A stretch of DNA of 64,000 nucleotides, taken from positions 211 to 64,210 of the forward strand of contig JAGAQG010000030.1 in the NCBI GenBank assembly GCA_017622875.1, written 5' to 3'. The notes under the pieces were generated by a model that saw only the letters and a program-made list of their open reading frames with translations, searched no databases and was not told the origin of the DNA. The stretch is from Lachnospiraceae bacterium. Lineage in GTDB: Bacteria > Bacillota > Clostridia > Lachnospirales > Lachnospiraceae. Positions 4,548-57,489 of the stretch are shown piece after piece; within the stretch, counting starts at the first letter, position 1, and every line of letters begins with the position of its first letter. Position numbers and translations under genes: made by a program.

Positions 4548-4585
4548 TTTCTCAGCTCCTTTCATAATGCTAAAAAATAAGAACA

Positions 4586-4626
4586 CACAGAAAATACTTC
4601 ATTTTTTAATGACATATTTTCTCTGT
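4586..4626. repeat. Imperfect inverted repeat at the recombinase-proximal transposon end
   Basis: CACAGAAAATA ... TATTTTCTCTG, lying between the recombinase start (4547) and the point where T4CP homology ends. Confidence 0.4.
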
Positions 4627-5168
4627 ATTCTTAAAATGTAACCCTTAGGGTCAGTCACAACATAACTGGAGTGCATTTGAAGCAAATTAGGCTTCAGCCA
4701 GAAACGGGTCTTACCGGAGCCGGAGCCGCCGATGATTAAGACGTTCTTGTTTCGGGCATTGGCAGGATTCTTCGGACGATTGGACATCATCAATCTCTCC
4801 GTCTTGGTGAGAATGATATTGTCCTCGAACTTCGGAGCCATGAACGGCTCAATATCCTTTGCCGTACCCCAGCGGGCTGAACCATACTCAACATTGTGTC
4901 GGTACTTTTTGGCGTTCTTTCCTTTAAGGTAGACTGCCAATCGCATCATACCGCCGCAGGCAATACCTACAAGCAGGTCTGATGGATGAAAGCTCGGCAA
5001 CGGATTGGAAAGTGCCACGGAGAAGGTACTAAAAAAGCCGAGGAGCTTTGCAGAAAAATCTGCGCCCTCGGCTAATCGCCACGCTTCACCTAAATTGGTT
5101 GCGAATAATCCCACAAGGAAATATGGGACATTCAGGATCAGGAGTCGTTTTATCTTTTTCTTGTCCAT
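4599..5168 (-). pseudogene. Truncated VirD4/TraG-type type IV coupling protein (first ~176 aa only)
   Basis: N-terminal TM helices, Walker A IIGGSGSGKT and ...SSYVVTDPKG, followed by 13 unrelated codons (YILRIQRKYVIKK) and a stop. Intact homologues are about 600 aa. Confidence 0.8.
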
Positions 5169-5644
5169 TACAGATCACGCTCCTGTTTCTTCTCTCTAAT
5201 TTTCTTCGGAATGGAAGCAACAACAGCTTTGAGCTTCTGAAGCTGTTTGAGTACACTTGGACGTTTTTCCTGATTCATGTGCTTCGCCATGTGTTCCTTG
5301 GTAATAGCGTCCAGAACATCAGCGTCTTTTGCTTTCACGAAGACGAGATAGCGGGGTGGATCTACTGATTTATCTTTCCTTACGGCAAAATCCACTCCGT
5401 ATTTTTTCGCCAATCGCTCAAAATCTTTGATTTCGCTCTTGTCGATTTCGGTGTTGGTAGCACCCTGGTTCTGTCCCAGAAGCTCTTTCACCGTCTGTTT
5501 ACCGTGAGGGCGTGTGTCTTTGTGTGCTTTGACCTTTTCCCGGTGTTGCAAATACTTGCGAATACCGGCGACGATACTTCGGCCTGTCAGCTTGGTCGTG
5601 CTGATGGCAAGATTTATCGTCCTGTTTTCAACTTCTTCCTGCAT
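5168..5644 (-). CDS. DUF3801 / PcfB-like conjugation accessory protein
   Basis: 158 aa with RBS AGGAGGTGA. It sits immediately upstream of, and overlaps, the T4CP start, as is typical in Firmicutes ICEs. The family was recalled from sequence pattern only. Confidence 0.65.
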   Translation of the reverse strand: MQEEVENRTINLAISTTKLTGRSIVAGIRKYLQHREKVKAHKDTRPHGKQTVKELLGQNQGATNTEIDKSEIKDFERLAKKYGVDFAVRKDKSVDPPRYLVFVKAKDADVLDAITKEHMAKHMNQEKRPSVLKQLQKLKAVVASIPKKIREKKQERDL

Positions 5645-5677
5645 GAATCATCACCTCCTGCAAGCAGTAGAATGAAA

Positions 5678-5989
5678 TCATCGTGCTGTATCCTTACGGT
5701 CGTAGTAAAGGTTGCCCTTTCCAACAGCAGCATGGCTGATAATCTTAATGTGACCGGCTTTCTGGTTTTCCAGAGCTTTCTTATACCCGAAATCACTCAG
5801 ATACAGGCGTGTTCTTTCGCCCTTCCATCCAACAGGGGAATCATGGGTCAGAACATCAAAAATAATCATGTGCTTTGTGTTTTCGTCAAAACGAGCCAAG
5901 TCCATATAGGTGTGTCCATGGTATTCCTTTGCACCGGCTTTCAGGCGCATTTCTTCCATCAACTCACCAATCGTTTTTCCACCAGCCAT
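5678..5989 (-). CDS. Hypothetical ICE protein (103 aa)
   Basis: ATG 5989 is preceded by AAGGTGG. It overlaps the upstream stop by 11 nt (coupled). No recognisable motif. Confidence 0.5.
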   Translation of the reverse strand: MAGGKTIGELMEEMRLKAGAKEYHGHTYMDLARFDENTKHMIIFDVLTHDSPVGWKGERTRLYLSDFGYKKALENQKAGHIKIISHAAVGKGNLYYDRKDTAR

Positions 5990-5999
5990 AGATGCCACC

Positions 6000-6641
6000 T
6001 TACAGCACATCCCTGTCAGGAGCAGACTTCTTGGGAGTCATATCTGCTTTTTCAGGAGCATCAGGCTTCTTCACTCGGTCATCGGGTACAGGCAGAGCCA
6101 TAAGGCTGCGTCCCATCTTCACGAACATTTCGGGCTGATGGAACATCTTCTCGAACTTCTGCATCTGTTCAGGTGTAAGCGAACCAAAGTCATCCTCTGT
6201 CAGACCGGTAATAAGAAAATCACCAGCGAGAATGTCGTAGATCTGACCTTCATCATCACGCAGACAACGGTTCAATTCACTGCCGTTGAGCTTACCTTCC
6301 TCGTTGCAGATAATCGCAACAGGGTCTTCAAACGGATACACAGCCTGAATGCAGCCACCGACAGCAGCCTGCAAGTCCTCTAACTCACAGCCAATCTGTA
6401 CCTGCTGGGGATACATACCGGGCTTCACCAGAAGAACATCCATAGTAGGTTTCTGTTCCTGCTGGATGTCACGTTCTGCCTGTGTGGTGAACTGAACACC
6501 GGTAAAGTTCTCAGCGTCCAGGACATGCTCCGAGTTGTAATAAGCCTTTTTGACTGCTTCTTCAGCGTCCTCACGAGATTCTGCATCCACCTTCACATTC
6601 TTTTCCAACGTTTCGGTGATTGTAACGTCATACTCTTTCAT
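6000..6641 (-). CDS. DpnD/PcfM-like N-terminal domain fused to a DUF3846 domain
   Basis: MKEYDVTITETLEKNVKVDAESREDAEEAVKKAYYNSEHVLDAENF... followed by LLVKPGMYPQQVQIGCELEDLQAAVGGCIQAVYPF. RBS GGAGG. The family was recalled, not searched. Confidence 0.6.
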   Translation of the reverse strand: MKEYDVTITETLEKNVKVDAESREDAEEAVKKAYYNSEHVLDAENFTGVQFTTQAERDIQQEQKPTMDVLLVKPGMYPQQVQIGCELEDLQAAVGGCIQAVYPFEDPVAIICNEEGKLNGSELNRCLRDDEGQIYDILAGDFLITGLTEDDFGSLTPEQMQKFEKMFHQPEMFVKMGRSLMALPVPDDRVKKPDAPEKADMTPKKSAPDRDVL

Positions 6642-6659
6642 GTTATCAAACCTCCAATC

Positions 6660-7589
6660 TTAAATATTTTCAAAAAGCCAGTTCGTCAGAATATCAAAAG
6701 TTTCTTCTGAACCGCCGCTTTTTTCTTCATGGAGCAGATCATGCCTTGCACCGGAAATCAGATACATCTGAATGTGCTTCATTCCTGCTTTTGACATGGA
6801 CTGCTTTACTCGCTGAACGCCTTTACCGAAGTCTCCGACAGGATCATCTTCGCCAGAAATCAAAAGAACGGGCATCTGCTTGTTCCACTTGCGGTAGGAA
6901 GCAGGCTTGCCCGTTCTTTTCATAGAGTCCAGCAACTGCCAGAACAGACCTGCGGAAATGGTCTTTCGACAGAGAGGATCACCTCGGTATTTGATTCTCT
7001 GTGCGGTGTCAGAGCAGAGCCAGTCGACAGAAGTCATATTGGGGGCGAACTTCTGATTGTAGGTCTCAAAAGACAACTTTTTGATTTTCTGTGTGGAACT
7101 ATCAAAGCCATGTGCCTTGATTTCTCGTTTCACAACAGGCATCAGCATACTTAGGACGGCCCCAGGCTGATGACCAGTTCCCATGATGATTGCTCCATCC
7201 ACCTTATCACGATACAGACTCAGGTAATCACGAAGCAGAAAGGAACCAAGCGAAAATCCTAACATGAAATGCGGGATATTAGGGAACTTGCTTTCCAGTT
7301 CCAAATAGAACAGGTGCATATCGTGAAGTGCGTAGTTCCAACCGCCCTCACCAAAAGATGCACACTGATTATCGCCGGGATTGTGACCATGCCCACGCAG
7401 ATCAAAACCGGCAACGGCAATGCCGTAGGCAGTCAACATATCTGCCAGTTCTTCATAACGTCCGATGTGTTCTGTCATGCCATGCGTTATCTGTACAACC
7501 ATTGTGGGACTGCACATCGGATACCAGATGATGCCGGGAAGGGAAACTCCGTTGGCACCGGTAAATCGAATTTCTTTAGCTTTCATCAT
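6660..7589 (-). CDS. Alpha/beta hydrolase (lysophospholipase / monoacylglycerol-lipase-like), ICE cargo
   Basis: HGMTEHIGRYEELADML..GFDLRGHGHN, nucleophile elbow GFSLGS, C-terminal GARHDL. RBS GGAGAAG precedes ATGATG at 7589. Confidence 0.8.
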   Translation of the reverse strand: MMKAKEIRFTGANGVSLPGIIWYPMCSPTMVVQITHGMTEHIGRYEELADMLTAYGIAVAGFDLRGHGHNPGDNQCASFGEGGWNYALHDMHLFYLELESKFPNIPHFMLGFSLGSFLLRDYLSLYRDKVDGAIIMGTGHQPGAVLSMLMPVVKREIKAHGFDSSTQKIKKLSFETYNQKFAPNMTSVDWLCSDTAQRIKYRGDPLCRKTISAGLFWQLLDSMKRTGKPASYRKWNKQMPVLLISGEDDPVGDFGKGVQRVKQSMSKAGMKHIQMYLISGARHDLLHEEKSGGSEETFDILTNWLFENI

Positions 7590-7634
7590 AACTTCTCCAT
7601 GCCTTGAAATGAAAAAAGCGACCATCCATAAGCC

Positions 7635-8159
7635 TTACGGCTCACAAACAGTCGCACGATTAAGTAGCTGAGCGAACATACAAGTATCATCCAGTGCGCA
7701 GATCAAATCTTCAGGCTCGAAGAAAACATCCTCCTCGGTTCGGATGGTCTTTACATGGCGGCGATACTCTGTAATGCAATCTGCATCCTCACCGTTCTTG
7801 GTCATCGTTCCCGCATACTGAACGATTGCGAAAGTCATGTCCTCCAGGAACCACAGCTCCGTGAAAGTAACTGTGCGCATCCGCTCATTTTCGATGATGC
7901 TTTCAGGATAAGATAGGAGAATCACGCCCCTGTGCTTGAAAAGCACTCTGCCGTTGTAGTCGATACCATCACCGACACGACACACCATACGGAACTCAGG
8001 AATCGTGCCGGCATTTTCGGTGAATGCCTTTGCCAGCCACTTGGGGGAGATGTCCTCGATTTCTTCATCATAGTTTTCATACAGATTCTCCATGACCTCT
8101 GCATCAAACAGGTCAAAGAGTTTCACCAGCGCATTTTCGATTTTCTTGGGTGTAAACAT
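7635..8159 (-). CDS. Acidic hypothetical protein (174 aa)
   Basis: My count is about 34 D+E against about 18 K+R. No recognisable domain. It is coupled within the ICE operon between parB and the hydrolase. Confidence 0.6.
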   Translation of the reverse strand: MFTPKKIENALVKLFDLFDAEVMENLYENYDEEIEDISPKWLAKAFTENAGTIPEFRMVCRVGDGIDYNGRVLFKHRGVILLSYPESIIENERMRTVTFTELWFLEDMTFAIVQYAGTMTKNGEDADCITEYRRHVKTIRTEEDVFFEPEDLICALDDTCMFAQLLNRATVCEP

Positions 8160-8170
8160 TGGGTGTTACC

Positions 8171-9088
8171 TTACCTTTCCATACTTCTCTCACGTTTTTT
8201 CTGCCATTGTTCAAGCAGCTGAATGATTTTATCCTCCATCTGCTTGCTGGTGTAAGATTTCGGGAAGTATTTTCTAAGTGAATCTGTTTTGAAAGTAACT
8301 CGGTCGAGTTCGCCCTTCTTTATTTCATTCATAATTTCACACATCGCATCAAGGGTACATTCACCGGACTGTGCCAGTTTCTTGATACGCTGTGCCTGGG
8401 AGAGAGAAGGGGCAGCCTGAGCATAATCCATAGCTTCCAGAAAGTCTTTCTGTTCTTCTCTTGCGAGATAGGAAAGCTCAACAGCGGGATTAAACTTAAT
8501 CTGTCCGTTATCGACCATATCCAGTAATTCGGGGATAAGCTCAGTCAGTCGGATATAGCGACGAACCGTGTCACCGCTAATACCTTCTTTCTGTCCAACC
8601 TCATCATCACTTCTCGACTTCGCCGCAAGTTGCGGCGAAGTTGTTTTGCCCTGATGCTTGATAGCATCCATCTTCATGCGATAGGCAAAAGCACGTTCAC
8701 TTGGCAGAAGCGTTTCTCTCTGCAAGTTGGAATCGACCATCAAGATGATTGCCGCATCATCATCCAGATCACGGACAATAACCGGCATGGTCTCTTTGCC
8801 CGCAAGCTCAGACGCATGGTGTCGCCTGTGACCGGAGATAATCTCATAGCCGCCATAGGGGTCAGGGCGAACAATAGCAGGTGTCAGAACGCCGTATTCC
8901 TTGACGCTCTCAACGGTTTTCGCCATCTCCTCATCGTCCACAACTCGGAAGGGGTGTCCCTCAAATGGATGGAGTTCAGAAAGAGGAATTTCCTGCACTC
9001 GCTCCTGTTGGGCTTCAGCTCTGCTTTCCTCCGTGGAGAAAAGATCATCGTACCCCTTCAAGTTGATGTTTGCGCCTTTTTTCGGCAT
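8171..9088 (-). CDS. parB: ParB/Spo0J-like partition protein (ParB N-terminal nuclease-like domain)
   Basis: PLSELHPFEGHPFRV...YGVLTPAIVRP...YEIISGHRRHHASELAG. RBS AAAGGAGGTG. Confidence 0.85.
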   Translation of the reverse strand: MPKKGANINLKGYDDLFSTEESRAEAQQERVQEIPLSELHPFEGHPFRVVDDEEMAKTVESVKEYGVLTPAIVRPDPYGGYEIISGHRRHHASELAGKETMPVIVRDLDDDAAIILMVDSNLQRETLLPSERAFAYRMKMDAIKHQGKTTSPQLAAKSRSDDEVGQKEGISGDTVRRYIRLTELIPELLDMVDNGQIKFNPAVELSYLAREEQKDFLEAMDYAQAAPSLSQAQRIKKLAQSGECTLDAMCEIMNEIKKGELDRVTFKTDSLRKYFPKSYTSKQMEDKIIQLLEQWQKKRERSMER

Positions 9089-9875
9089 TGTTTAACACCT
9101 CCTTTGTCAAAACACGATAAGCGTCTGCCACTTTACCTTTCGGATCGTGCTTGAAAATACTGGTTCCCTCGGCACTTATTTCTTCCGCACGGACAGAACG
9201 AGGGATGTCCGTCTTGTAGACCTTTAGCTTGCCACCGTAGCTCTCACGAATCAGGTTACTGATGTCCTTTGCGTAGTTGGTTCTGCTGTCTACCATCGTC
9301 AGAAGAATACCTTCGATTTTCAGCTTCGGATTAATTTGACGACGAACCTTGTTGATGGTCTGCAAAAGCTGTTCCAAGCCCTTTGCGGGAAGGTACTGTG
9401 CCTGCACCGGAATAAGAACGGTATCCGCAGCAGCAAGAGCATTCACGGTCAGCATACCCAGAGAGGGCATACAGTCCAGAAGAATGAAGTCATAGCTCTG
9501 CTTTACCGTATCCAGGTACTGACGGAGAATGGTCTCTCGGCTCATAGCGTTTACCAGAGATACCTCAAGACCGGAAAGCTCGATGTTGGAAGGCATCAGG
9601 TCGATGCCTTCAGGATGATGCAGGATACCTTCGCCCGGTTCAATGGGCTTTTCCATCATAACCTTTGCCATCATGTCAGAAAGCGTTGTGGGCAGTTCAT
9701 CGGGAACAGGATAACCAAGGCTGATTGTCAGCGATGCCTGCGGGTCTGTGTCTACGACCAGAACCTTTTTGCCCTCCATCGCCAAGCCGACACCAAGGTT
9801 TTCCGTGGTAGTTGTCTTGCCGGTACCGCCTTTCTGATTAACCACAGCCATGACGGTTGCTTTCTTTGCCACCAT
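9045..9875 (-). CDS. parA: ParA/Soj family ATPase
   Basis: Deviant Walker A VVNQKGGTGKTTTTENLG. It overlaps parB by 44 nt. Confidence 0.9.
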   Translation of the reverse strand: MVAKKATVMAVVNQKGGTGKTTTTENLGVGLAMEGKKVLVVDTDPQASLTISLGYPVPDELPTTLSDMMAKVMMEKPIEPGEGILHHPEGIDLMPSNIELSGLEVSLVNAMSRETILRQYLDTVKQSYDFILLDCMPSLGMLTVNALAAADTVLIPVQAQYLPAKGLEQLLQTINKVRRQINPKLKIEGILLTMVDSRTNYAKDISNLIRESYGGKLKVYKTDIPRSVRAEEISAEGTSIFKHDPKGKVADAYRVLTKEVLNNAEKRRKHQLEGVR

Positions 9876-9921
9876 TCATCACCTCGACTTTCTTATTGGG
9901 TTTCAAGTTTTATCACTCCTT

Positions 9922-10824
9922 TCAACGAAAAAAGCCCTCTGACATATCGTGACTTACCTTTGCTGTGTAGAAAGGGTCGATAGTAAGAGGGGCATTATAT
10001 ATCGCAGCAAGCAGATACTGCTTGACGTTGCGAACATCAGTTTTGTTTTCTTTGAAGCAGTCAATAACGAAACAGATATGGTCTGATTCCAACTTCATAA
10101 ATCTGCTTTTTACAATTTCAGCTGGCTTATCATCACTGGCGATACGAATCAGCTTGCGTCTGGTACATACTGTTTCAACGATCAAGTCCAAAATGGAATT
10201 AAGCAGATTGTGGTCGTATGGATACCTGGACAGCAGAATATCAAATTCAAGCTGTTCTCTGAAATAATCGTAATATTGTTTCCATTCTCCATTCCCTTCG
10301 GTTCCTTTTCCACAAAAACCGGAAGATAGGAAAGGATCAGTATCACTATAATCAGTATAATTAGTATCAGTATTATTTCCTCGTAGTTTTCCCGACTCCA
10401 CAATCGGGGTTTGTCCGACTCCAGAATCGTGATTTTCCCGACTCTTGAATCGTGATTCCACAATACTATCCACACCACTGACAAAGTTCTTCACATAGAT
10501 CAGGTTGGGTTTTCCAAGTCCCTGTCTTTTGCGTTCAATCAGGCCGCATTTCTTTTCCAATTCGTTATAGAGCTTCGTGGCCTTGTTATCACCACAGTTC
10601 AGCGCAGCCATCGTTTCTTCCAATGTGAATATGATATAGACACGACCGGCAGCATCCATCCAGCCGTTCCGGGCTGACAGATTCATGCGGTCAAGCAATA
10701 TACCATAGAGCAACTTTGCGTCGGTAGACACGTTCCAGAAACGATCATCGGTAAACAGCATCTTCGGTATTTTGTAAAAGGAGAACTGTTCTGCCTGCTG
10801 ACCGTAGAAATAATCAAATTCCAT
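9922..10824 (-). CDS. RepA_N-family replication initiator
   Basis: MEFDYFYGQQAEQFSFYKIPKMLFTDDRFWNVSTDAKLLYGILLDRMNLSARNGW.D..GRVYIIFT is a typical RepA_N N-terminus. RBS GGGAGGTGA. Confidence 0.75.
   Translation of the reverse strand: MEFDYFYGQQAEQFSFYKIPKMLFTDDRFWNVSTDAKLLYGILLDRMNLSARNGWMDAAGRVYIIFTLEETMAALNCGDNKATKLYNELEKKCGLIERKRQGLGKPNLIYVKNFVSGVDSIVESRFKSRENHDSGVGQTPIVESGKLRGNNTDTNYTDYSDTDPFLSSGFCGKGTEGNGEWKQYYDYFREQLEFDILLSRYPYDHNLLNSILDLIVETVCTRRKLIRIASDDKPAEIVKSRFMKLESDHICFVIDCFKENKTDVRNVKQYLLAAIYNAPLTIDPFYTAKVSHDMSEGFFR
10387..10466. repeat. 3.5 direct repeats of 23 bp inside the rep gene (candidate iterons / oriV)
   Basis: TTTTCCCGACTCCACAATCGGGG / TTTGTCCGACTCCAGAATCGTGA / TTTTCCCGACTCTTGAATCGTGA / TTCCACAATAC, starting at 10387, 10410, 10433 and 10456. 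Confidence 0.6.
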
Positions 10825-11056
10825 TTTTGCTCACCTCCCTCGGATGGAAGGGGTCGCTGACCAGAGGAGATTCCCTCAGTGTGCAGCCCTTGATTGCATA
10901 AGGACAACACACATAGTAACAGCTTCGATATTTCCACTTTGGCTGATGGAACTCACATTCTTTGCAGCTTCGTGGAGTCGTTCGCTTGGAGATCCGAGAG
11001 CCAGGAGCTTTTCTCAGTGTCCTTTCCATGGACTGAAATTTTTTGTCCTCACTCAT
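10814..11056 (-). CDS. Cysteine-rich small protein (Cys_rich_KTR-like)
   Basis: MSEDKKFQSMERTL...CKECEFHQPKWKYRSCYYVCCPYAIKGC. Its ATG overlaps the upstream stop (ATGA). Confidence 0.55.
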   Translation of the reverse strand: MSEDKKFQSMERTLRKAPGSRISKRTTPRSCKECEFHQPKWKYRSCYYVCCPYAIKGCTLRESPLVSDPFHPREVSKNGI

Positions 11057-11057
11057 A

Positions 11058-11282
11058 TTATCGGATGCCAAGCTCTCGCAGAATTTTCTTCGTACACCAC
11101 CCAATACAAGGGTGATCCCGCCCATAGGGACAGCCATCGCATTCTGACTGAACCTTTGGTGCTTCACGAATCAGGTAATAGCAATTACCTTTGCCCAGAC
11201 TGCAGCCCGACCATATTCCTTTCCAGAAATAGCACTTGCTGCATTCGCTTGGCTTGTCTGGAGCATACATTTCCTCTTGCAC
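11058..11282 (-). CDS. Cysteine-rich small protein (Cys_rich_VLP-like)
   Basis: GTG start 7 nt after GGAGG. ...CSKCYFW...GCSLGKGNCYY...CDGCPYGRDHPCIGWC. Proteins like this typically form the first gene pair of this ICE type. Confidence 0.6.
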   Translation of the reverse strand: MQEEMYAPDKPSECSKCYFWKGIWSGCSLGKGNCYYLIREAPKVQSECDGCPYGRDHPCIGWCTKKILRELGIR

Positions 11283-11328
11283 ATCCTAACCTCCAATCCT
11301 CAAATTTTTTCCGAGATGTTCGGAAATG

Positions 11329-11375
11329 AAAAAAGAGCGCTTACTCATCCCTCGAAAGGGGCGAATAAACGCTCT
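11329..11375 (-). terminator. Intrinsic-terminator-like hairpin about 50 nt upstream of the first ICE gene
   Basis: Minus strand: AGAGCG-(inner CCCT-TTCG-AGGG)-CGCTCT followed by TTTTTTC. A second hairpin, TTCCGA-N5-TCGGAA, lies at 11309-11325. Confidence 0.5.
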
Positions 11376-11444
11376 ATGTAAACACGATAATATTCAGTTT
11401 TATTTCCTATAACGTCGTAGCACTCAAAACATCCGCCTTTTGCA

Positions 11445-11540
11445 ATTAGCAAAAATTTTAGCCCGATTTTGGGGCTGATTAGCAGGAGGGGCATTTTCAT
11501 TAGCAAAAACAGCCCGTTTTCTGCTAAAAATTAGCTGGCG
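11445..11540. repeat. Cluster of TTAGCA/TTAGCT motifs, including two copies of a longer direct repeat
   Basis: ATTAGCAAAAA..AGCCCG(A)TTTT occurs twice (from 11445 and from about 11498). Also GATTAGCAGG, inverted TGCTAA (11522-11527) and TTAGCTGGCG (11531-11540). Confidence 0.5.
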
Positions 11541-11649
11541 ATTTTGTCTTATGACAGTAGTTCGATATTTTTTGGCGTGCAAAGAGTGACTCTCTAAGGT
11601 AAACTGTTCATTAAAAACAAACTAATTGACATTGCTATGTTTAGGTATG

Positions 11650-11687
11650 AAAAAAGCCGAAAACCCTTGAAAACAAAGGCTTTCGGC
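11650..11687 (-). terminator. Rho-independent terminator of tRNA-Arg
   Basis: Minus strand: GCCGAAAGCC-N12-GGTTTTCGGC followed by TTTTTT, 10 nt after the tRNA 3' end. Confidence 0.75.
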
Positions 11688-11696
11688 GTTGTTAGC

Positions 11697-11773
11697 TGGC
11701 GTCGCAAAAGGGACTTGAACCCCCGACCCCACGCTTAGGAGGCGTGTGCTCTATCCAACTGAGCTATTGCGAC
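11697..11773 (-). tRNA. tRNA-Arg(CCT): tRNA-Arg, anticodon CCT, CCA encoded
   Basis: Cloverleaf folded by hand: acceptor GTCGCAA/TTGCGAC, anticodon stem CACGC/GCGTG, loop CTCCTAA, T-loop TTCAAGT, 3' GCCA. Confidence 0.95.
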
Positions 11774-28260: not shown

Positions 28261-29349
28261 ATGAAAAATAAATTTCTGATATATACATTGGCAGCAGTGG
28301 CAGTGCTCTCTTTTGGAAGCATGGAGTCCAAGGCTGCAGCTTTAAGTCTGGGAAGCAGTGCTGGGATTGCCTCCGCGCTGGAAGCCTACGAAGCAAATAC
28401 CATTAATGCAGATAAAAAGATTATGGAATATCTTGATACTGCAGCAACAAACAAGAACCTTTGTATCGCGAAGGTCAATGATTATGTGAATGTAAGAAAA
28501 GGACCAAGCGAAGAGGAAGAGATCGTAGGGAAGTTATACGATAAATCTGCAGGACAGGTTTTGGAAGAAGTAGATGGATGGTATAAAATTTCCTCCGGTT
28601 CCATTTCTGAAGGATATGTAAAAAAGGAATATGTAGTTGTAGGAGAAGAAGCACAGGAACTTGCAAAAGAAGTTGGTACAAGATTTGCTACAGTCATCAC
28701 AGAGACACTCCGTGTACGTGAAGATGCAACTACAGAAAGCTCTATCTTAGGTCTCGTTCCGGAAGGTGAAGAGCTGGTCGTAAAGGAAGAAGTGGAAGGC
28801 TGGGTCAAAGTATCCATCGAAGAAGGTGAAGGCTGGGTTTCCATTGATTATGTAATGCTTCATACTGAATATGTACAGGCAGAGTCAAAAGAAGAAGAGG
28901 CAGCACGTCTTGCAAAAGAAGAGGCAGCAAGAAAGGCAGCCAATGCAGCAGCAGCGAAGAAGTCAGGTTCCGGCAGTCAGGTGGTTGGAAATTCTGCAGG
29001 ATCTTCTTCCGGACAGGCGGTTGCAAATTTTGCAAGCAGATTTGTGGGTAATCCATACGTTTATGGAGGAACAAGCTTAACAAACGGTGCAGACTGCTCT
29101 GGATTTGTTATGAGTGTATATGCGAACTTCGGTGTATCATTACCACACTCTTCAAGTGCTTTGAGAAATGTAGGATATGGAGTATCTTTAAGTCAGGCAC
29201 AGCCAGGTGATATTATTTGTTACTCAGGTCACGTTGGAATTTATGTTGGTAATAATACAATCGTTCATGCAAGTACAGCAGCAACAGGTATTAAATATAC
29301 TTCTCCGGTAACTTACAGACAGGTTCTTGCAGTAAGACGTATTTTCTAA
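28261..29349 (+). CDS. Secreted cell-wall hydrolase: SH3b repeats + C-terminal NlpC/P60 domain
   Basis: Signal peptide. Two VNVRKGPS / LRVREDAT SH3-like units. GADCSGFV catalytic Cys and GHVGIY His. Confidence 0.85.
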   Translation: MKNKFLIYTLAAVAVLSFGSMESKAAALSLGSSAGIASALEAYEANTINADKKIMEYLDTAATNKNLCIAKVNDYVNVRKGPSEEEEIVGKLYDKSAGQVLEEVDGWYKISSGSISEGYVKKEYVVVGEEAQELAKEVGTRFATVITETLRVREDATTESSILGLVPEGEELVVKEEVEGWVKVSIEEGEGWVSIDYVMLHTEYVQAESKEEEAARLAKEEAARKAANAAAAKKSGSGSQVVGNSAGSSSGQAVANFASRFVGNPYVYGGTSLTNGADCSGFVMSVYANFGVSLPHSSSALRNVGYGVSLSQAQPGDIICYSGHVGIYVGNNTIVHASTAATGIKYTSPVTYRQVLAVRRIF

Positions 29350-29487: not shown

Positions 29488-30336
29488 ATGAGACAAGTAA
29501 AACTAATTGCGTTAGATATGGATGGAACATTGTTTAATAGTCAGGGAGAAATTTCTGAAAAAGATAAAGATACCTTAAAAAGAGCCACGGAGGCAGGCGT
29601 TGCAGTAGCTGTGGCCACTGGAAGAGCTTATTCAGAGCTGCCGATAGAAATGCTTTATGAAATCGGCGTTCGCTATGCTATTACGGGAAATGGTTCTGGT
29701 GTCTATAAACTTCCGAATATGGAATGCGTATTTTCAGATTGCCTGGATCATGAGGTGGTATGTACCATTATTGAGGAATTGAAAAAGCTGGATGTGTATT
29801 ATGATGTTTATATTGAGGGACTTGTATATTGTCCAAGGTCAGTCTGTCATAATATCAGAAAAATGGATATGCCGGAGTCTTTGTATGAGCATATTGAAAA
29901 AACGAGAATCGTAGTGGATGATCTGCCGGAATATATTAAGGGCACCGGGAAGCAGGTAGAAAAGGCAACGATCAATTTTGCGTTATTAGAGGACGGTACT
30001 TATCTTGACCGCGACCGCACAACAGAGATTTTAGAGCGTTATCCACAGGTGCAGTATCTGTGCGGCGGATTTCATAACTGGGAATTTACAAGAGCAGGTG
30101 TTACGAAAGGCACTGGCTTAAGATTTCTGGCAGAACGCATAGGTGTGGATATGGATCAGACGATGGCCTGTGGAGACTCTGAAAATGACTTATTTATGTT
30201 AAAGGAAGCTTATGTGGCGGTAGCGATGGAAAATGCAACAGAACAGATTAAGCAAACAGCAAATTACGTGACCCTTTCTAATGATGAGAGCGGTGTGGCA
30301 TATGCTGTGGAGCGGTTTGTATTTGGTAAGAACTAG
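29488..30336 (+). CDS. Cof-type HAD-IIB hydrolase
   Basis: LIALDMDGTLFNS motif I and the GDSENDLFML motif. Confidence 0.85.
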   Translation: MRQVKLIALDMDGTLFNSQGEISEKDKDTLKRATEAGVAVAVATGRAYSELPIEMLYEIGVRYAITGNGSGVYKLPNMECVFSDCLDHEVVCTIIEELKKLDVYYDVYIEGLVYCPRSVCHNIRKMDMPESLYEHIEKTRIVVDDLPEYIKGTGKQVEKATINFALLEDGTYLDRDRTTEILERYPQVQYLCGGFHNWEFTRAGVTKGTGLRFLAERIGVDMDQTMACGDSENDLFMLKEAYVAVAMENATEQIKQTANYVTLSNDESGVAYAVERFVFGKN

Positions 30337-30338: not shown

Positions 30339-30771
30339 AGTGGATAAGTTATCCCCAATTATCCACATTTTCCACATAGGGGGTGTGGATAAAAAATGTG
30401 GAAGAAAAAGTGAAAATCAGCAGTTTGCACAATCAAATTTTTTTGTCGAAAAAAAATGCCCAAACTTTTAAAAAGCAAAAAAAAGTTATCCACATCTAAA
30501 AATGTGGGAAATATGGAAAAATCCAACTTATCAACCGAGTTATCCACTTCGTCCACATAAAATTTTAGGATTTTCCACGGTTTACATAGTTTTTTTCGAA
30601 ACAAATGTTTTGTGACATTTTGATAAAGTTCACAAATGTGGATAGATTTTTTGAAAAAAATGTTGACTTTTGGAATGTCAAAAAATAGAAAATACCGTTG
30701 TAAATTGTCAGAAAATTCAGAATAATATCAACACTTTTCAAGTGAGAGGATTTGTTGTAGAATGTGGATAG
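30339..30771. promoter_or_regulatory. DnaA-box cluster (3 perfect plus 6 one-mismatch TTATCCACA boxes) with one Spo0A box
   Basis: Perfect boxes: 30359-67 (+), 30384-92 (-), 30486-94 (+). One mismatch: 30339-47, 30349-57, 30368-76, 30540-48, 30637-45, 30763-71. TGTCGAA at 30444-50 sits inside TTTTTTTGTCGAAAAAAAA. Confidence 0.75.
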
Positions 30772-30792: not shown

Positions 30793-31437
30793 ATGCGATT
30801 AAGAAATATTAAGGGCTCCAGAGAGGTCATTGGGGCGAGCGATTACGTGGTACATGAAGAGGAGACAAAGGCCGGAACATGGCATGAGATTTTTGGAAAT
30901 GATCATCCAATCTATATTGAAGTAGGGATGGGAAAGGGTCAGTTTATTATGGCACTGGCAAAGCGTCATCCGGAAAACAATTATGTGGGAATTGAAAAAT
31001 ACAGCAGTGTGCTGCTTAGAGCATTGGAGAAAATGGATAAAGAGGAAGAGCCGCTTCCAAACCTGGTATTTATCCGTATGGATGCAGAAAATATTGAAAA
31101 AGTATTTGCAGAAGGAGAGGTTGATGGTATCTACTTGAATTTCTCTGATCCATGGCCAAAGGATCGTCATGCAAAAAGACGTCTGACAAGCACCACATTT
31201 TTCGGACGCTATAACAAGATTCTGAAAAAAGACGGGAAAGTAGAGTTTAAGACAGATAATCGTCCGCTGTTTGAATTTTCTTTAGAATCTGTAAAGGAAG
31301 CTGGATGGAATCTGGTGGCACATACCTTTGATCTTCACCATAATGAGGAGATGAATGAGGGAAATATTATGACGGAATATGAGGAGAAATTTTCCTCTCA
31401 GGGGAATCCGATTTGTAAGCTGATTGCTGACCGATAA
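30793..31437 (+). CDS. trmB: tRNA (guanine46-N7)-methyltransferase
   Basis: Length and motifs match (EVGMGKGQF SAM site, FSDPWPKDRHAKRR). RBS AAGGAGAA. Confidence 0.9.
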   Translation: MRLRNIKGSREVIGASDYVVHEEETKAGTWHEIFGNDHPIYIEVGMGKGQFIMALAKRHPENNYVGIEKYSSVLLRALEKMDKEEEPLPNLVFIRMDAENIEKVFAEGEVDGIYLNFSDPWPKDRHAKRRLTSTTFFGRYNKILKKDGKVEFKTDNRPLFEFSLESVKEAGWNLVAHTFDLHHNEEMNEGNIMTEYEEKFSSQGNPICKLIADR

Positions 31438-31513: not shown

Positions 31514-31586
31514 GCACCTTTAGCTCAGTTGGTAGAGCACCTGACTCTTAATCAGGGTGTCCAGGGTTCGAGCCCCTGAAGGTGCA
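31514..31586 (+). tRNA. tRNA-Lys(CTT): tRNA-Lys, anticodon CTT, CCA not encoded
   Basis: Acceptor GCACCTT/AAGGTGC, anticodon stem CCTGA/TCAGG, loop CTCTTAA, T-arm CAGGG-TTCGAGC-CCCTG. Confidence 0.95.
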
Positions 31587-31713
31587 CTGGAAGTACTGTT
31601 TTTGAGGTTCAGCCTTGGGGACGGTGCTTTTTTTGTGCAGAAAGATATACTTTATGATACACTAAAAAAACGTGTGAAAATTAAGAAGAATTAAGAAAGA
31701 AGCAGGTGAGAAA

Positions 31714-37695: not shown

Positions 37696-38364
37696 TTAAA
37701 ATGAGAGAGGCAGGCTGATTAGGACGGTCGTACCTGCCCCTTCTCTGGAATCTATGGACAGCTTTCCGCCGTGAGATGAAATGATTCGTTTCACGATAGG
37801 TAAGCCAAGTCCCGTACCGTAGGATTTGGTGGTATGAAAAGGTTCAAAGATCTTATCCATCTGTTCCTTGCTCATACCACAGCCATGGTCTGCGACGCAG
37901 ATATGGAGCGTGGTTTCATCCGCAGTAATGCGAAGCTCGATGGGGCTTCCTGCTTCAGAGCTTTCTGCAGCATTCTTTAAAAGATTAATGATTGCCTGGC
38001 GAAGCTTCACTTCGTCAGCAGGAAAATCAAGATCCAGAATGTCACAGGTCAGCGTTAGCGGCGTCCCGGTCTCTAAAAGAAATCCGGCGGTGGATTCTAA
38101 AAGATCTTCTGTAAAATCAAAGAGGTTGATGGTTGTAATATTTAGCACATTTCCTTTTTGAAAGGAAGATAATTCGTCAATCAGTCCCCGAAGATTTTTT
38201 AGATCTTCCATGGTCTGATTCCAGAAGCGAAAGGTCTTTACTTCTGGATGATCGCTTTCAATCAGCTGCAGGGAGCTGTTTATTAGAGTAAGAGGATTTT
38301 TTATTTCATGGAACATTTTAGAAAGTTCAAGAGATTCCTCTGATAGATTGTTTACATTGGACAT
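37696..38364 (-). CDS. Sensor-less orphan histidine kinase (DHp + CA only, 222 aa, no TM)
   Basis: H-box FHEIKNPLTLI, N-box LLKNAAES, G1 DHGCGM, G2 GTGLGL. AGAGGTGA precedes ATG 38364. No response-regulator gene is adjacent. Confidence 0.85.
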   Translation of the reverse strand: MSNVNNLSEESLELSKMFHEIKNPLTLINSSLQLIESDHPEVKTFRFWNQTMEDLKNLRGLIDELSSFQKGNVLNITTINLFDFTEDLLESTAGFLLETGTPLTLTCDILDLDFPADEVKLRQAIINLLKNAAESSEAGSPIELRITADETTLHICVADHGCGMSKEQMDKIFEPFHTTKSYGTGLGLPIVKRIISSHGGKLSIDSREGAGTTVLISLPLSF

Positions 38365-38422
38365 AGGTATCACCTCTAGGGAAAATCGTAACATTGATTT
38401 CTGTAAAATAACAGAAAAATCG

Positions 38423-38439
38423 TTCGACAGATTTCGACA
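38423..38439. promoter_or_regulatory. Two perfect Spo0A (0A) boxes phased 10 bp apart
   Basis: TTCGACAGATTTCGACA: boxes at 38423-29 and 38433-39, reading TGTCGAA toward the kinase gene. They lie 59-75 nt upstream of its ATG. Confidence 0.6.
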
Positions 38440-54056: not shown

Positions 54057-55496
54057 ATGATTGGAATGTTTTGGGCAGAAAAATATGCCATGGTAACGGG
54101 ACTGACACTGGTGGTACGAAAGCTTTTTAAACCAAAGGGTACAAAGGATATGTGGGTAAGTGCATTGACGGCAGGGACGGCACTGATTTCCATGAATCTT
54201 GGGGCGGGACTTCTGTATCCTTATACAACAGAACAATATTTGTTTGGTGTGGCAGAAGGAATCTTTGCGGGCAGTACGATTCTGATGCTGTGGATGCTTG
54301 GAAAAAAGATGTTTGTAAAGAAGCCTGTGGCGGCAGAGGAGAATTTTTCTCCTGGAGAAGAACGAATCGAGCATTATACAAAAGCATTTACGGATCTTGC
54401 AAGAACCTTTTTAAGCGTGCCCTCGGGAGGTACCTATGCGGTGGTGGGCATGGATGATTACCAGAAAGTTCACGCCGCGTGGAATGCAAGAATGGACGAA
54501 CAGAGGGTGGCGGTGGCAACTCAGCTTACAGAAATATCCGAGATCATGGAAGGAGCCATACGAAGGGCATACGACACAAAGGAAGATACTTCTCTGGAGA
54601 GGCAGCTAAAAAGGCTTTTGCATAAAAAGGGCATTTTGCTGAAAAAGGCATTTGTATATGACAATGAAGAGCAGAGAAAGGAGGTTTATCTTACCATTCG
54701 CACACGAAAGAAGAGCTGTATTTCCAATAAGGAGGCGGCGGAATGTTTATCAGAGGTGCTGGGGATGGCTATGATGCCATCCCGTGAAGCCAGAGCTTTT
54801 GTAAGAAATGAATATATGAATACCTGCTTTGTGGAGCGCACCAATTTTGAGGTGATTTATGCAGTGGAGCGATGTGTGGGAGATTATCAGCAGATTTCCG
54901 GTGACAGCTTTTCCTTTTTGCATAAAGAAGAAGGACAGTTTTTGGCAAGCCTGTCAGATGGTATGGGTACCGGGTTAAATGCATATCAGGAAAGTGAAAA
55001 GGTGGTAGATTTGCTGGAACAGTTTTTAGAAGCTGGATTTTCCAAGGAGACGGCAGTGAAGATGATCAATTCAGCACTGGTGCTGCGTTCTGACGGTAAG
55101 ACCTTTTCCACCATTGATATCAGCTCCATTGACCTTTACAGTGGTGTCTGTGAATTTTTAAAGATTGGTGCAGCTACCTCTTTTATCCGAAGGGGGAACT
55201 GGGTAGAGACCATCACCTCTACCAGCCTGCCTGCAGGTATTTTTCAGCAGACTGATCTTGAAAAGACCTGCAGAAAGCTTTATGACGGGGATATGGTGGT
55301 GATGGTGACAGACGGGGTACTGGATGTACTGCCTGTGGAGCATCAGGAAAAGCTGATGAAAGACATTATTTTGGAGCATCCGACGAATAATCCCAAGGAA
55401 TTGGCGGATTATATACTAAGCAGAGTCAGACAATATAAGAACGGGCGGTTCTGTGATGACATGACGGTTTTAGTGGTGGGAATCTGGAAGCGATAG
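54057..55496 (+). CDS. spoIIE: Stage II sporulation protein E (PP2C phosphatase), short form with about 3 TM helices
   Basis: ISGDSFSF...LSDGMGTGLNA...MVTDGVLD...DDMTVLVVG PP2C motifs. AGGAGGG precedes the ATG. Synteny with tilS-hpt-ftsH. Confidence 0.8.
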   Translation: MIGMFWAEKYAMVTGLTLVVRKLFKPKGTKDMWVSALTAGTALISMNLGAGLLYPYTTEQYLFGVAEGIFAGSTILMLWMLGKKMFVKKPVAAEENFSPGEERIEHYTKAFTDLARTFLSVPSGGTYAVVGMDDYQKVHAAWNARMDEQRVAVATQLTEISEIMEGAIRRAYDTKEDTSLERQLKRLLHKKGILLKKAFVYDNEEQRKEVYLTIRTRKKSCISNKEAAECLSEVLGMAMMPSREARAFVRNEYMNTCFVERTNFEVIYAVERCVGDYQQISGDSFSFLHKEEGQFLASLSDGMGTGLNAYQESEKVVDLLEQFLEAGFSKETAVKMINSALVLRSDGKTFSTIDISSIDLYSGVCEFLKIGAATSFIRRGNWVETITSTSLPAGIFQQTDLEKTCRKLYDGDMVVMVTDGVLDVLPVEHQEKLMKDIILEHPTNNPKELADYILSRVRQYKNGRFCDDMTVLVVGIWKR

Positions 55497-55586
55497 CCTT
55501 GATTTTTTCGGGTAAGTTCATTATAGTTGAAGCAGTAAACCTTACAAATTGATCGTTTTGAAGGGTAACGAAAGAGAGGGTGGCAC

Positions 55587-57477: not shown

Positions 57478-57489
57478 GAGGAGTTATTA

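What the first reader, a model, noticed from the sequence alone, without database searches (positions are those of the whole stretch)
30339..30771. Dense DnaA-box cluster with an embedded Spo0A box, away from dnaA and upstream of trmB
Seen:
- A 433-bp spacer with no credible gene holds three perfect TTATCCACA boxes (30359, 30384 reverse, 30486) and six one-mismatch boxes, plus several two-mismatch boxes.
- Roughly 0.5 perfect 9-mers would be expected by chance on both strands of the whole 64-kb window, assuming equal base frequencies.
- Between the boxes lies an A/T-rich tract, TTTTTTTGTCGAAAAAAAATGCCCAAACTTTTAAAAAGCAAAAAAAAG, that contains a perfect 0A box (30444-50).

Established: B. subtilis has several DnaA-box clusters outside oriC that titrate DnaA or make DnaA act as a transcription factor. 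E. coli datA does similar. Spo0A-P binds 0A boxes overlapping DnaA boxes at oriC.

Inference: this is a DnaA titration or regulatory locus, possibly under dual DnaA/Spo0A control. A cryptic or second origin is less likely.
Basis: partly seen in the sequence, partly recalled or inferred. Interest (0 to 1): 0.7.

Follow-up and report, generated by a model that had tools for sequence, protein, structure and literature searches.

The report
Conserved DnaA–Spo0A box module, not origin
The spacer before trmB is one copy of a fixed-layout, roughly 380-bp non-coding module, packed with binding sites for the replication initiator DnaA and flanked by sporulation-regulator (Spo0A) sites, that many uncultured gut Clostridia share; it is not a replication origin and most likely ties replication status to gene control.

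Summary
The 433-bp spacer holds 3 perfect, 6 one-mismatch and 9 two-mismatch DnaA boxes, against 0.02, 0.22 and 1.7 expected from the rest of the window.

It is not specific to trmB. It is one member of a conserved non-coding module with fixed spacing:
- TGCACAA
- a 0A box
- box A
- three tandem boxes (B, C, D)
- TTTACATA
- an [A/G]AAC-N4-GTTT palindrome at +60
- a 0A box in many members (not this window)
- TTGAC(T/A)
- a CodY-like box

I found 35 distinct copies in Lachnospiraceae-type contigs. The upstream side is usually NlpC/P60 or TrxB. The downstream gene varies: trmB, inverted trmB, hpf-secA, DUF1858/mecA, or the end of a V-ATPase operon.

It is not oriC. GC skew keeps its sign across it, no dnaA or dnaN is nearby, and the DnaA-trios that follow the same tandem boxes in true origins are absent.

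Exact 0A boxes are strongly enriched at fixed module positions (36 observed, 1.6 expected). This supports dual DnaA/Spo0A control, although one box in this window alone is at chance level.

Best reading: a non-origin DnaA-box cluster that acts as a multi-regulator control region and DnaA sink. No binding data exist, and every carrier found is uncultured.

The parts
28261..29349 (+). NlpC/P60 + SH3 cell-wall hydrolase gene. It is the conserved, co-oriented upstream neighbour of the module in most lineages.
   Evidence: Pfam SH3_3 and NLPC_P60. A homologous gene ends 150-530 bp upstream of the module in about 20 of 35 distinct module loci.
29488..30336 (+). HAD/Cof-type hydrolase gene, lying between NlpC/P60 and the module only in the window's close relatives.
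   Evidence: Pfam Hydrolase_3. Present in L001-L011 and L091 and absent in L093, where NlpC/P60 abuts the module.
30339..30405 (.). Upstream block of six DnaA boxes, specific to this clade: 30339- (1 mismatch), 30349+ (1), 30359+ (perfect), 30368+ (1), 30384- (perfect), 30397- (2).
   Evidence: Kept in L011, L091 and L093. Replaced by other sequence in more distant modules.
30426..30432 (+). TGCACAA motif with no assigned binding protein.
   Evidence: Present in 32 of 33 modules against 2.6 expected in total. It sits at -104, -114 or -125 from box C, that is, in steps of one helical turn.
30444..30450 (+). Perfect 0A box TGTCGAA (-96 from box C). It also reads as a 2-mismatch DnaA box on the minus strand.
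   Evidence: The same position (-84 to -103) carries an exact 0A box in L091, L093 and many non-trmB modules.
30486..30494 (+). DnaA box A (perfect), within the conserved AAAGTTATCCACA.
   Evidence: Invariant or nearly so in every module, always 54 bp before box C.
30528..30557 (+). Three head-to-tail DnaA boxes: B TTATCAACC (2 mismatches), C TTATCCACT (1) and D TCGTCCACA (2). Offsets are 12 and 9 bp.
   Evidence: The family consensus is AGTTATnCACaAAGTTATCCACATTATCCACA. The same C-D pair occurs in true dnaA-dnaN origins, where DnaA-trios follow it.
30581..30588 (+). Conserved TTTACATA motif with no assigned binding protein.
   Evidence: Alignments.
30599..30610 (.). Palindrome AAAC-AAAT-GTTT at a fixed +60 from box C, one mismatch from the clostridial LexA operator GAACnnnnGTTT.
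   Evidence: [A/G]AAC-N4-GTT[T/C] is present in 11 of 12 modules found through TrmB. The exact GAAC-N4-GTTT form is in 8 of 33. The operator consensus is from PMC4234289.
30637..30645 (-). Reverse DnaA box CTATCCACA (1 mismatch).
   Evidence: Kept in L011, L091 and L093.
30663..30682 (+). TTGACT (-35-like) followed by TGTCAAA (a 0A-like box with one mismatch). Together they form an imperfect palindrome.
   Evidence: TTGAC(T/A) lies at +121 to +125 in 31 of 33 modules. None has a -10-like hexamer at 16-18 bp. A -10-like hexamer is common at 19-22 bp instead: GAAAAT at 30688-30693 here, and TATAAT, TAGAAT or TACAAT in other lineages. The second half is an exact TGTCGAA in L099, L124 and L157.
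30703..30717 (.). CodY-box-like palindrome AATTGTCAGAAAATT, one mismatch from AATTTTCWGAAAATT.
   Evidence: It is the only match with one mismatch or fewer in the window. Matches with three mismatches or fewer recur at +152 to +192 in the modules: 20 observed, 3.0 expected.
30735..30763 (+). Proximal trmB promoter: TTTTCA, 17 bp, TAGAAT.
   Evidence: The CTTTTCA...TGTAnAAT motif at about -60 to -67 from the ATG is also present before trmB in loci that lack the module, such as L019, L024, L033 and L087. It is therefore the gene's own promoter.
30763..30771 (-). Reverse DnaA box CTATCCACA overlapping the -10 and transcription start of the proximal promoter.
   Evidence: Among the loci examined, found only in the window and the identical metagenome copies L001-L010; absent in L011, L091 and L093.
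30793..31437 (+). trmB (tRNA m7G46 methyltransferase), the downstream gene in this lineage.
   Evidence: Pfam Methyltransf_4. Homologues are named TrmB by their sources.

Best explanation
The spacer is a chromosomal DnaA-box cluster that is not an origin. It belongs to a conserved module of about 380 bp, and I saw one copy per locus.

**Inferred mechanism**
- DnaA-ATP nucleates on four co-oriented boxes: A, then the tandem B, C and D. In this clade it also binds six extra upstream boxes and two reverse boxes.
- This builds an oligomer on double-stranded DNA, so the site holds many DnaA molecules and acts as a sink.
- The array sits inside a control region flanked by Spo0A (0A) boxes. It is followed at fixed distance by a LexA-type palindrome, then by a -35-like TTGAC with an over-long spacer (the kind of promoter that needs an activator), then by a CodY-like box.
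- All of these point with the replication direction into the downstream gene, which here is trmB. trmB also has its own ordinary promoter.
- The module would therefore make rightward transcription depend on replication status (DnaA), entry into sporulation (Spo0A~P), and probably DNA damage and nutrient state.

**Shown:** the boxes, their significance, their conservation, their fixed geometry, and the non-origin status.

**Inferred:** who binds, the direction of regulation, and the sink effect.
For: - **Enrichment.** The DnaA-box excess is strong at all three mismatch levels.
- **Independent conservation.** The array is kept in loci found through the TrmB protein alone, so independently of any DNA motif. 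It persists at 65-97% TrmB identity with four different upstream genes.
- **Fixed geometry.** Box A lies at -54, the palindrome at +60 (within 1 bp), and TGCACAA at -104, -114 or -125.
- **Single copy.** nhmmer finds one full-length copy in the 64-kb window, E = 8e-32.
- **Not an origin.** Skew is positive on both sides in the window and in 12 other loci. The module faces along the G-rich strand in 33 of 34 loci. No dnaA or dnaN is near. An NTN run of 3 or more follows the tandem boxes in only 15% of modules, against 42% of shuffles, whereas true origins with the same tandem boxes show runs of up to 7.
- **0A boxes.** 36 observed against 1.6 expected, position-specific, and in either orientation at +97.
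- **Sporulation genes.** spoIIE lies in the window, so this is a sporulation-gene carrier.
- **Promoter geometry.** No -10-like hexamer lies 16-18 bp from TTGAC in any of 31 modules; one is common at 19-22 bp.
- **Precedent.** B. subtilis sda is controlled by a DnaA-box cluster together with LexA.
Against: - There are no binding or transcription data for any factor.
- In about a third of lineages the next gene is convergent (end of a V-ATPase operon, mecA after a small DUF1858 gene, an IS, or inverted trmB). A role as the promoter of a particular gene therefore cannot be the conserved function.
- In the trmB subfamily only 4 of 12 modules keep an exact 0A box, and the -10-like element after TTGACT is weak.
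- The LexA-like site does not overlap a recognisable promoter.
- 0A boxes are also 2-mismatch DnaA boxes.
- The metagenome set was selected on boxes C-D and on the +60 motif, so those two features are conserved there by construction.
- The modules are homologous, so the counts are not independent events.
Confidence: 0.55

Rival explanations
1. It is a dedicated DnaA-control locus in the manner of E. coli datA or DARS, or a pure titration site. The fixed array plus accessory-protein sites would change DnaA availability or nucleotide state, with Spo0A~P modulating it at sporulation. Transcription into the neighbouring gene would be incidental.
For: - The module persists where the downstream gene is convergent or replaced.
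- The geometry is fixed and spacing variants differ by one helical turn.
- Orientation relative to replication is constant in 33 of 34 loci.
- B. subtilis DBCs restrain initiation even when moved elsewhere (PMC3245932).
Against: - A conserved -35-like element and a CodY-like box at the 3' end look like promoter parts.
- No IHF-type site can be claimed.
- No catalytic DnaA-control locus is known in Firmicutes.
- Nothing here measures DnaA state.
Confidence: 0.22
2. It is the promoter region of an unrecognised small RNA or micro-protein, an Sda-like checkpoint output. That product would be encoded just after TTGAC and controlled by DnaA, LexA and Spo0A.
For: - The regulatory logic resembles that of B. 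subtilis sda, which combines DnaA and LexA control.
- The module stands alone before convergent genes in several lineages.
Against: - In the window only about 100 bp separate TTGACT from the trmB promoter, and they hold no ORF or terminator.
- The sequence after +160 is not conserved between subfamilies.
- There is no Rfam match.
Confidence: 0.08
3. It is a replication origin: the true oriC displaced from dnaA, a second origin, or a decayed relic of one.
For: - The DnaA boxes are dense, and they include the same tandem pair used in true dnaA-dnaN origins.
- The stretch after the boxes is 60-83% A+T.
- 0A boxes occur in B. subtilis oriC (own knowledge).
Against: - GC skew has the same sign on both sides in every locus tested.
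- Genes on both sides run mostly the same way.
- No dnaA or dnaN is nearby.
- DnaA-trio runs are rarer than in shuffles.
- The A+T-rich stretch is occupied by conserved, protein-site-like motifs.
- Nothing similar was found in the plasmid or phage collections.
Confidence: 0.04
4. It is a chance accumulation of box-like words in A+T-rich spacer DNA, or the sites belong to another factor with a similar motif.
For: The spacer is 70% A+T against 59.5% for the window.
Against: - Poisson P is 1e-6 to 1e-7.
- No shuffle reaches the observed counts.
- The boxes are the best-conserved columns in loci chosen without reference to DNA motifs.
- The motif is the exact DnaA consensus.
Confidence: 0.02

Closest known systems
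Non-origin DnaA-box clusters (DBCs) of Bacillus subtilis, especially DBC[yqeG-sda], the sda promoter region
   Same: - Intergenic clusters of consensus DnaA boxes outside oriC.
- They bind DnaA stably, regulate neighbouring genes and restrain initiation (PMC3245932).
- sda combines DnaA control with LexA repression and feeds into Spo0A activation (PMC11925247 and PMC8203912).
- This module combines DnaA boxes with a LexA-type palindrome and 0A boxes.
   Different: [quoted passage not shown]
- This module keeps one layout and one upstream neighbour across lineages with 65-100% TrmB identity while the downstream gene changes.
- No sda-like gene follows it.
- Closeness to the origin could not be established.
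- DnaA binding is untested.
E. coli datA and DARS1/DARS2
   Same: Non-coding chromosomal loci away from oriC. Each has a defined arrangement of DnaA boxes plus sites for accessory DNA-binding proteins, and each acts on DnaA rather than on a gene (PMC3245932 introduction; titles and abstracts).
   Different: - There is no sequence relationship.
- The accessory sites here look like 0A, LexA and CodY sites rather than IHF or Fis sites.
- Firmicutes are not known to have such loci.
- A promoter-like 3' end is present.
- Function is untested.
oriC basal unwinding system (tandem DnaA boxes 6 and 7, DnaA-trios, A+T-rich element)
   Same: The same head-to-tail pair TTATCCACATTATCCACA, in the same orientation, is found in genuine dnaA-dnaN spacers retrieved by the same scan: L137, L139, L151 and L174.
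   Different: - In those origins a GC cluster and CTA-type trios follow within 16 bp (PMC8287927).
- The modules have no such runs.
- They also lack a skew switch and any dnaA or dnaN neighbour.
Spo0A-activated sigma-A promoters with over-long spacers (spoIIG and spoIIE type), and 0A boxes within B. subtilis oriC
   Same: - 0A boxes lie next to a -35-like hexamer whose -10 partner sits at about 19-22 bp rather than 17.
- 0A boxes overlap weak DnaA boxes.
   Different: - The 0A box positions relative to the putative start site do not match the spoIIG layout.
- The -10 is weak in the window's own subfamily.
- No transcription data exist.

Membership tests
Non-origin DnaA-box cluster (DBC) | Several consensus or near-consensus DnaA boxes clustered in an intergenic region, beyond chance | tested here: met
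   The spacer holds 3 perfect, 6 one-mismatch and 9 two-mismatch boxes in 433 bp. P is 1.4e-6, 1.2e-7 and 7e-5.
Non-origin DnaA-box cluster (DBC) | Lies outside oriC | tested here: met
   No skew switch, no dnaA or dnaN, and no DnaA-trios.
Non-origin DnaA-box cluster (DBC) | Stable DnaA binding in vivo (ChIP) | not testable with these tools
   Only conservation of the boxes was available as a proxy.
Non-origin DnaA-box cluster (DBC) | Deletion alters initiation timing or neighbouring-gene expression | not testable with these tools
   This needs genetics in a carrier. All carriers found are uncultured.
Non-origin DnaA-box cluster (DBC) | Usually close to the origin | tested here: inconclusive
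   The spoIIE-tilS-hpt-ftsH block, which is origin-proximal in B. subtilis (own knowledge), lies 24-29 kb downstream on the leading strand. No closed genome carrying the module could be retrieved.
Chromosomal origin (oriC with a basal unwinding system) | At least three DnaA-trios (3'-NAN-5', preferably GAT) within 16 bp of the tandem boxes | tested here: not met
   The window's best run is 2. Only 5 of 33 modules reach 3, against 42% of shuffles. True origins with the same boxes reach 3-7. The criteria are from PMC8287927.
Chromosomal origin (oriC with a basal unwinding system) | GC-skew sign change and divergent gene orientation | tested here: not met
   Skew is +0.10 and +0.11 either side in the window, and positive on both sides in nearly all of the 12 loci. 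Cumulative skew rises from 12 to 64 kb.
Chromosomal origin (oriC with a basal unwinding system) | Adjacent to dnaA and/or dnaN, as is usual in Firmicutes | tested here: not met
Chromosomal origin (oriC with a basal unwinding system) | A+T-rich unwinding element next to the boxes | tested here: inconclusive
   The 60 bp after box D are 73% A+T here. However, they consist of motifs conserved in sequence and position, and no helical-stability calculation was run.
Spo0A-bound site (0A box) | TGNCGAA consensus present | tested here: met
   TGTCGAA at 30444-30450.
Spo0A-bound site (0A box) | More frequent than chance | tested here: inconclusive
   Not in the window, with 7 found against 8.0 expected. 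Strongly so in the module family: 36 against 1.6, position-specific, and C-variant over G-variant by 20:3 and 11:2. Only 4 of 12 trmB-type modules keep an exact box.
Spo0A-bound site (0A box) | The host has the Spo0A pathway | tested here: inconclusive
   spoIIE is in the window. spo0A itself was not seen in the 64 kb.
LexA (SOS) operator, clostridial form GAACnnnnGTT[T/C] | Palindrome matching the consensus | tested here: inconclusive
   The window has AAAC-AAAT-GTTT, one mismatch. The match is exact in 8 of 33 modules, and [A/G]AAC-N4-GTT[T/C] is in 32 of 33, partly by construction. The consensus is from PMC4234289.
LexA (SOS) operator, clostridial form GAACnnnnGTT[T/C] | The operator overlaps the regulated promoter | tested here: not met
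   It lies about 60 bp upstream of TTGACT, and no sigma-A promoter overlaps it.
CodY box | 15-bp palindrome AATTTTCWGAAAATT | tested here: inconclusive
   One mismatch at 30703-30717. At two mismatches or fewer the window count is at chance level, 2 against 1.4. In the family, matches with three mismatches or fewer number 20 against 3.0, at +152 to +192.
Known RNA family | Match to an Rfam covariance model | tested here: not met
   Only the tRNA-Lys after trmB matched. Nothing credible was found in the spacer at E <= 1.

The most novel reading that the evidence does not exclude
The module could be a cis-acting checkpoint hub of spore-forming gut Clostridia, which are not known to have Sda. In this reading it is a fixed nucleoprotein platform on which DnaA, Spo0A~P, and probably LexA and CodY, meet. 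It would couple replication initiation and DNA integrity to the decision to sporulate. It could do this by sequestering or remodelling DnaA, as datA and DARS do, or by gating an activator-dependent promoter. It would be kept at one chromosomal place and in one orientation relative to the replication fork.
Probability: 0.2. Interest if true: 0.8.

Novelty: new variant of a known kind. Interest (0 to 1): 0.62.

Why it matters
How Clostridia couple chromosome replication to sporulation is open. As far as I know they lack the Bacillus phosphorelay and Sda.

A conserved, fixed-geometry DNA element that joins DnaA boxes to Spo0A boxes, and perhaps to LexA and CodY sites, gives that question a concrete target for mutation. 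The element is found in many abundant but uncultured gut Lachnospiraceae.

It also shows that non-origin DnaA-box clusters can be conserved as modules with their own architecture, not only as loose and species-specific box clusters.

There is a practical point too. Dense perfect DnaA boxes of this kind could mislead origin-prediction tools working on MAGs.

Tried and rejected
- **Skew switch near 12 kb as an origin.** Rejected. Bases 1-11.3 kb are an integrated element (RepA_N/DUF6017 protein, higher G+C) ending beside tRNA-Arg.
- **Structured RNA.** No Rfam match in the spacer.
- **Mobile or plasmid origin.** blastn of the spacer found nothing in the plasmid or phage collections.
- **Small ORFs in the spacer (43 aa on +, 81 aa on -).** Rejected. 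Relatives differ by indels that are not multiples of three, and one region varies in steps of 10-11 bp.
- **Rex-like or CRP-like TGTGA...TCACA at 30611-30635.** It is only in the window's own lineage and has the wrong spacing.
- **TTGAC as an ordinary sigma-A -35.** No -10 lies at 16-18 bp in any module.
- **The module as a trmB-specific regulator.** Rejected after the metagenome scan showed other downstream genes.
- **Flanking AATTGTCAG repeats as ends of a mobile element.** The motif is not repeated beyond chance in the window, 3 against 0.95 expected. nhmmer finds a single module copy.
- **Placing the module on a closed genome.** The aim was to measure distance from dnaA and to name a cultured carrier. 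The GTDB scan, a look-up of the window's TrmB, and homologue searches with NlpC/P60 and V-ATPase D returned only MAG or metagenome contigs. For module carriers these were at most about 200 kb.
Full report
**1. The observation**

The spacer lies between a HAD/Cof hydrolase gene (29488-30336, +) and trmB (30793-31437, +).
- It holds perfect TTATCCACA boxes at 30359 (+), 30384 (-) and 30486 (+). The whole window has six, against 0.68 expected.
- It also holds six one-mismatch boxes and nine two-mismatch boxes.
- Judged against the density in the rest of the window, Poisson P is 1.4e-6, 1.2e-7 and 7e-5.
- The 0A box TGTCGAA is at 30444-30450. As a lone 7-mer it is at chance level in the window, with 7 found and 8.0 expected.
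- Neither dnaA nor dnaN is in the 64 kb.

**2. The host and its surroundings**

TrmB is 97% identical to that of an uncultured 'Lachnoclostridium' MAG, and all related loci are Lachnospiraceae-type.
- Bases 1-11.3 kb are an integrated element beside tRNA-Arg. This explains the skew reversal near 12 kb.
- From 12 to 64 kb cumulative GC skew rises steadily. Plus-strand genes show about +0.2 and minus-strand genes about 0 on both sides of the spacer. The plus strand is therefore the leading strand throughout.
- spoIIE, tilS, an hpt-sized ORF that was not scanned, and ftsH lie 24-29 kb downstream.

**3. Conservation at trmB**

Loci were retrieved through the TrmB protein alone.
- The array is present in 5 of the 80 GTDB loci returned by the genome scan (up to 97% TrmB identity) and in 6 of 7 closer metagenome or MAG relatives with 75-92% identity.
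- Where present, it sits upstream of trmB even though the upstream gene differs: HAD, NlpC/P60, rubrerythrin or a CofE-like gene.
- Box positions are kept relative to one another: box A, 54 bp, then tandem boxes C and D at a 9-bp offset.
- In the alignments the boxes are the best-conserved columns.
- The proximal CTTTTCA-N17-TGTAnAAT promoter also occurs before trmB in loci that lack the boxes. It is therefore the gene's own promoter, and the box array is an added unit.

**4. A wider module**

A metagenome scan used the 19-mer AGTTATCCACATTATCCAC and returned 120 stretches. They fall into three classes.
- **True origins.** These are dnaA-dnaN spacers in which a GC cluster, CTA-type trios and A+T-rich DNA follow the tandem boxes (L137, L139, L151, L174).
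- **Replication-gene promoters.** Two copies of the tandem pair lie between murC and a gene pair that looks like dnaD and a dnaI-like helicase loader. I read this from the protein sequences and a weak DnaA-like AAA+ match. No Pfam scan was run on them.
- **The present module.** About 30 loci carry it.

The module layout, relative to the start of box C (window 30540), is:

| Element | Position relative to box C |
|---|---|
| TGCACAA | -104, -114 or -125 |
| 0A box or boxes | -143 to -84 |
| Box A | -54 |
| Box B | -12 |
| Boxes C and D | 0 to +17 |
| Often a reverse TGTGGAA | +26 |
| TTTACATA | about +40 |
| [A/G]AAC-N4-GTT[T/C] palindrome | +60 (within 1 bp) |
| 0A box, either orientation | +97 to +99 |
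| TTGAC(T/A) | +121 to +125 |
| Sometimes an exact 0A box | +135 |
| CodY-like palindrome | +152 to +192 |

nhmmer with the core profile finds one full-length copy in the window (30481-30678, E = 8e-32). Among the GTDB trmB loci it finds only the five already known.

Two caveats apply.
- In the metagenome set, boxes C-D and the +60 motif are conserved by construction. The other features were not used for selection, and the TrmB-anchored set is free of this bias.
- The modules are homologous, so counts are not independent events.

**5. Gene context**

I counted 35 distinct modules.
- **Upstream.** The co-oriented neighbour is usually NlpC/P60 (about 20 loci) or thioredoxin reductase. A Fur-family gene and rubrerythrin lie further up, as in the window.
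- **Downstream.** The gene varies: trmB (+), trmB inverted (L157), hpf-secA, a small DUF1858 gene followed by a convergent mecA, the convergent end of a V-ATPase operon, an IS transposase, and others.

The module is therefore a positional orthologue tied to its upstream flank, not to trmB. In about a third of lineages it has no co-directional gene to drive.

**6. Not an origin**

- GC skew has the same sign on both sides in the window and in the 12 loci with enough flank.
- The module points along the G-rich strand in 33 of 34 loci.
- No module locus carries dnaA or dnaN.
- NTN runs of 3 or more after box D occur in 15% of modules, against 42% of shuffles. The longest run in the window is 2. 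True origins that share the tandem pair reach 3-7. The criteria are from PMC8287927.
- No similar DNA is present in the plasmid or phage collections.

**7. The Spo0A question**

- Exact TGTCGAA occurs 36 times in 23 of 33 modules, against 1.6 expected. The largest count in 200 shuffles was 5.
- At -150 to -80, TGTCGAA outnumbers TGTGGAA 20 to 3. At +90 to +105 it does so 11 to 2. At +26 to +27 only the DnaA-type G-variant occurs. The flanking sites therefore have a specificity distinct from degenerate DnaA boxes.
- At +97 the box occurs in both orientations, which suggests turnover under selection.
- In the trmB subfamily only 4 of 12 modules keep an exact box, the window among them. The closest relative, L011, has lost it.

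**8. Other conserved parts**

- **LexA-type palindrome.** The +60 palindrome equals the clostridial LexA operator GAACnnnnGTTT in 8 modules. In most others, including the window (30599-30610), it is the symmetric one-mismatch form AAAC-N4-GTTT (consensus from PMC4234289).
- **TTGAC element.** TTGAC(T/A) never has a -10-like hexamer at 16-18 bp (0 of 31). One is common at 19-22 bp, and in several lineages it is TATAAT, TAGAAT or TACAAT. That is the geometry of activator-dependent promoters such as spoIIG (own knowledge).
- **CodY-like box.** AATTGTCAGAAAATT (30703-30717) is one mismatch from the CodY consensus. It is the only such site in the window. Weaker versions recur at the same place in the family, 20 against 3.0 expected.
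- **TGCACAA.** It varies in distance by about one helical turn, which suggests phased protein contacts.

None of these assignments is proven.

**9. Interpretation**

The best-supported reading is a non-origin DnaA-box cluster of the kind known from B. subtilis (PMC3245932). Here it is conserved as a fixed multi-factor module.
- DnaA would oligomerise on four co-oriented boxes, plus eight more in this clade.
- Spo0A~P sites flank the array.
- A LexA-type site, an activator-dependent promoter and a CodY-like site follow, all pointing with the replication fork into the next gene.
- The nearest precedent in logic is the sda control region, which combines a DnaA-box cluster with LexA and feeds into Spo0A.

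Because the downstream gene is not conserved, part of the selected function is probably independent of transcription. It may be DnaA sequestration or remodelling, as with datA and DARS. I give that purer version 0.22 and the combined regulatory-plus-sink version 0.55.

**10. Limits**

- There are no binding, transcription or replication data.
- All carriers found are uncultured. The contigs carrying the module are at most about 200 kb, so distance from oriC and copy number per genome are unknown.
They still recovered true dnaA and dnaN loci at E values down to 1e-132.

Noticed in passing
window 1-11773: An integrated element on the minus strand. It has a RepA_N/DUF6017 replication-initiator-like protein (9922-10824), higher G+C (0.44-0.48) and reversed GC skew. 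It ends beside tRNA-Arg(CCT) at 11697-11773. This boundary, not an origin, explains the skew switch near 12 kb.
   Followed up: partly
window 38423-38429 and 38433-38439 (minus strand): Two exact 0A boxes lie 10 bp apart, 29-45 bp upstream of a small HATPase_c protein gene (37696-38394, -), in the spacer shared with a HIT-family gene. The homologues of this gene in L099 and L102 also carry weak HisKA hits. It may be a Spo0A-controlled kinase-like gene.
   Followed up: no
window 54057-59292: spoIIE, tilS, an ORF of hpt size (56932-57477, not scanned) and ftsH lie in the same order and on the leading strand, as in the origin-proximal region of B. subtilis (own knowledge). This hints that the window is near the origin.
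   Followed up: partly
window 30039-30047 and 30144-30152: A fourth perfect DnaA box and a one-mismatch box lie inside the HAD hydrolase coding sequence, just upstream of the spacer. The perfect one is also present in the 97% relative L011 (at -755 from trmB). It could belong to the cluster or simply reflect coding conservation.
   Followed up: partly
L110, L117, L142, L146, L154, L161, L162, L181 (two copies) and L182 (one exact copy plus a variant): The tandem pair TTATCCACATTATCCACA occurs twice, about 120 or 180 bp apart. In L142 and L182 it lies between murC and what look like a DnaD-type gene followed by a dnaI/dnaC-like helicase-loader gene, read from the sequences and a weak DnaA-like AAA+ match, with no Pfam scan. 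This is probably a DnaA-controlled replication-gene promoter in gut Clostridia.
   Followed up: partly
L137, L139, L151, L174: These are genuine dnaA-dnaN origins that share the same tandem box pair. L174 shows a textbook unwinding system: CCCC, five tandem CTA trios followed by TTA and ATA, then an (AT)n tract. They served as positive controls for the trio test.
   Followed up: yes
L157 (module at about 2822): trmB lies immediately downstream of the module but on the opposite strand, converging on it. This suggests a local inversion of trmB relative to the module.
   Followed up: partly
window 31514-31587: tRNA-Lys(CTT) lies 77 bp after the trmB stop codon on the same strand. It may be co-transcribed with the tRNA methyltransferase gene.
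   Followed up: no
L195 (270-1982 from box C, minus strand): An IS-type DDE transposase gene sits directly after the module in one lineage. This fits the idea that the downstream edge of the module is a rearrangement hot spot.
   Followed up: no
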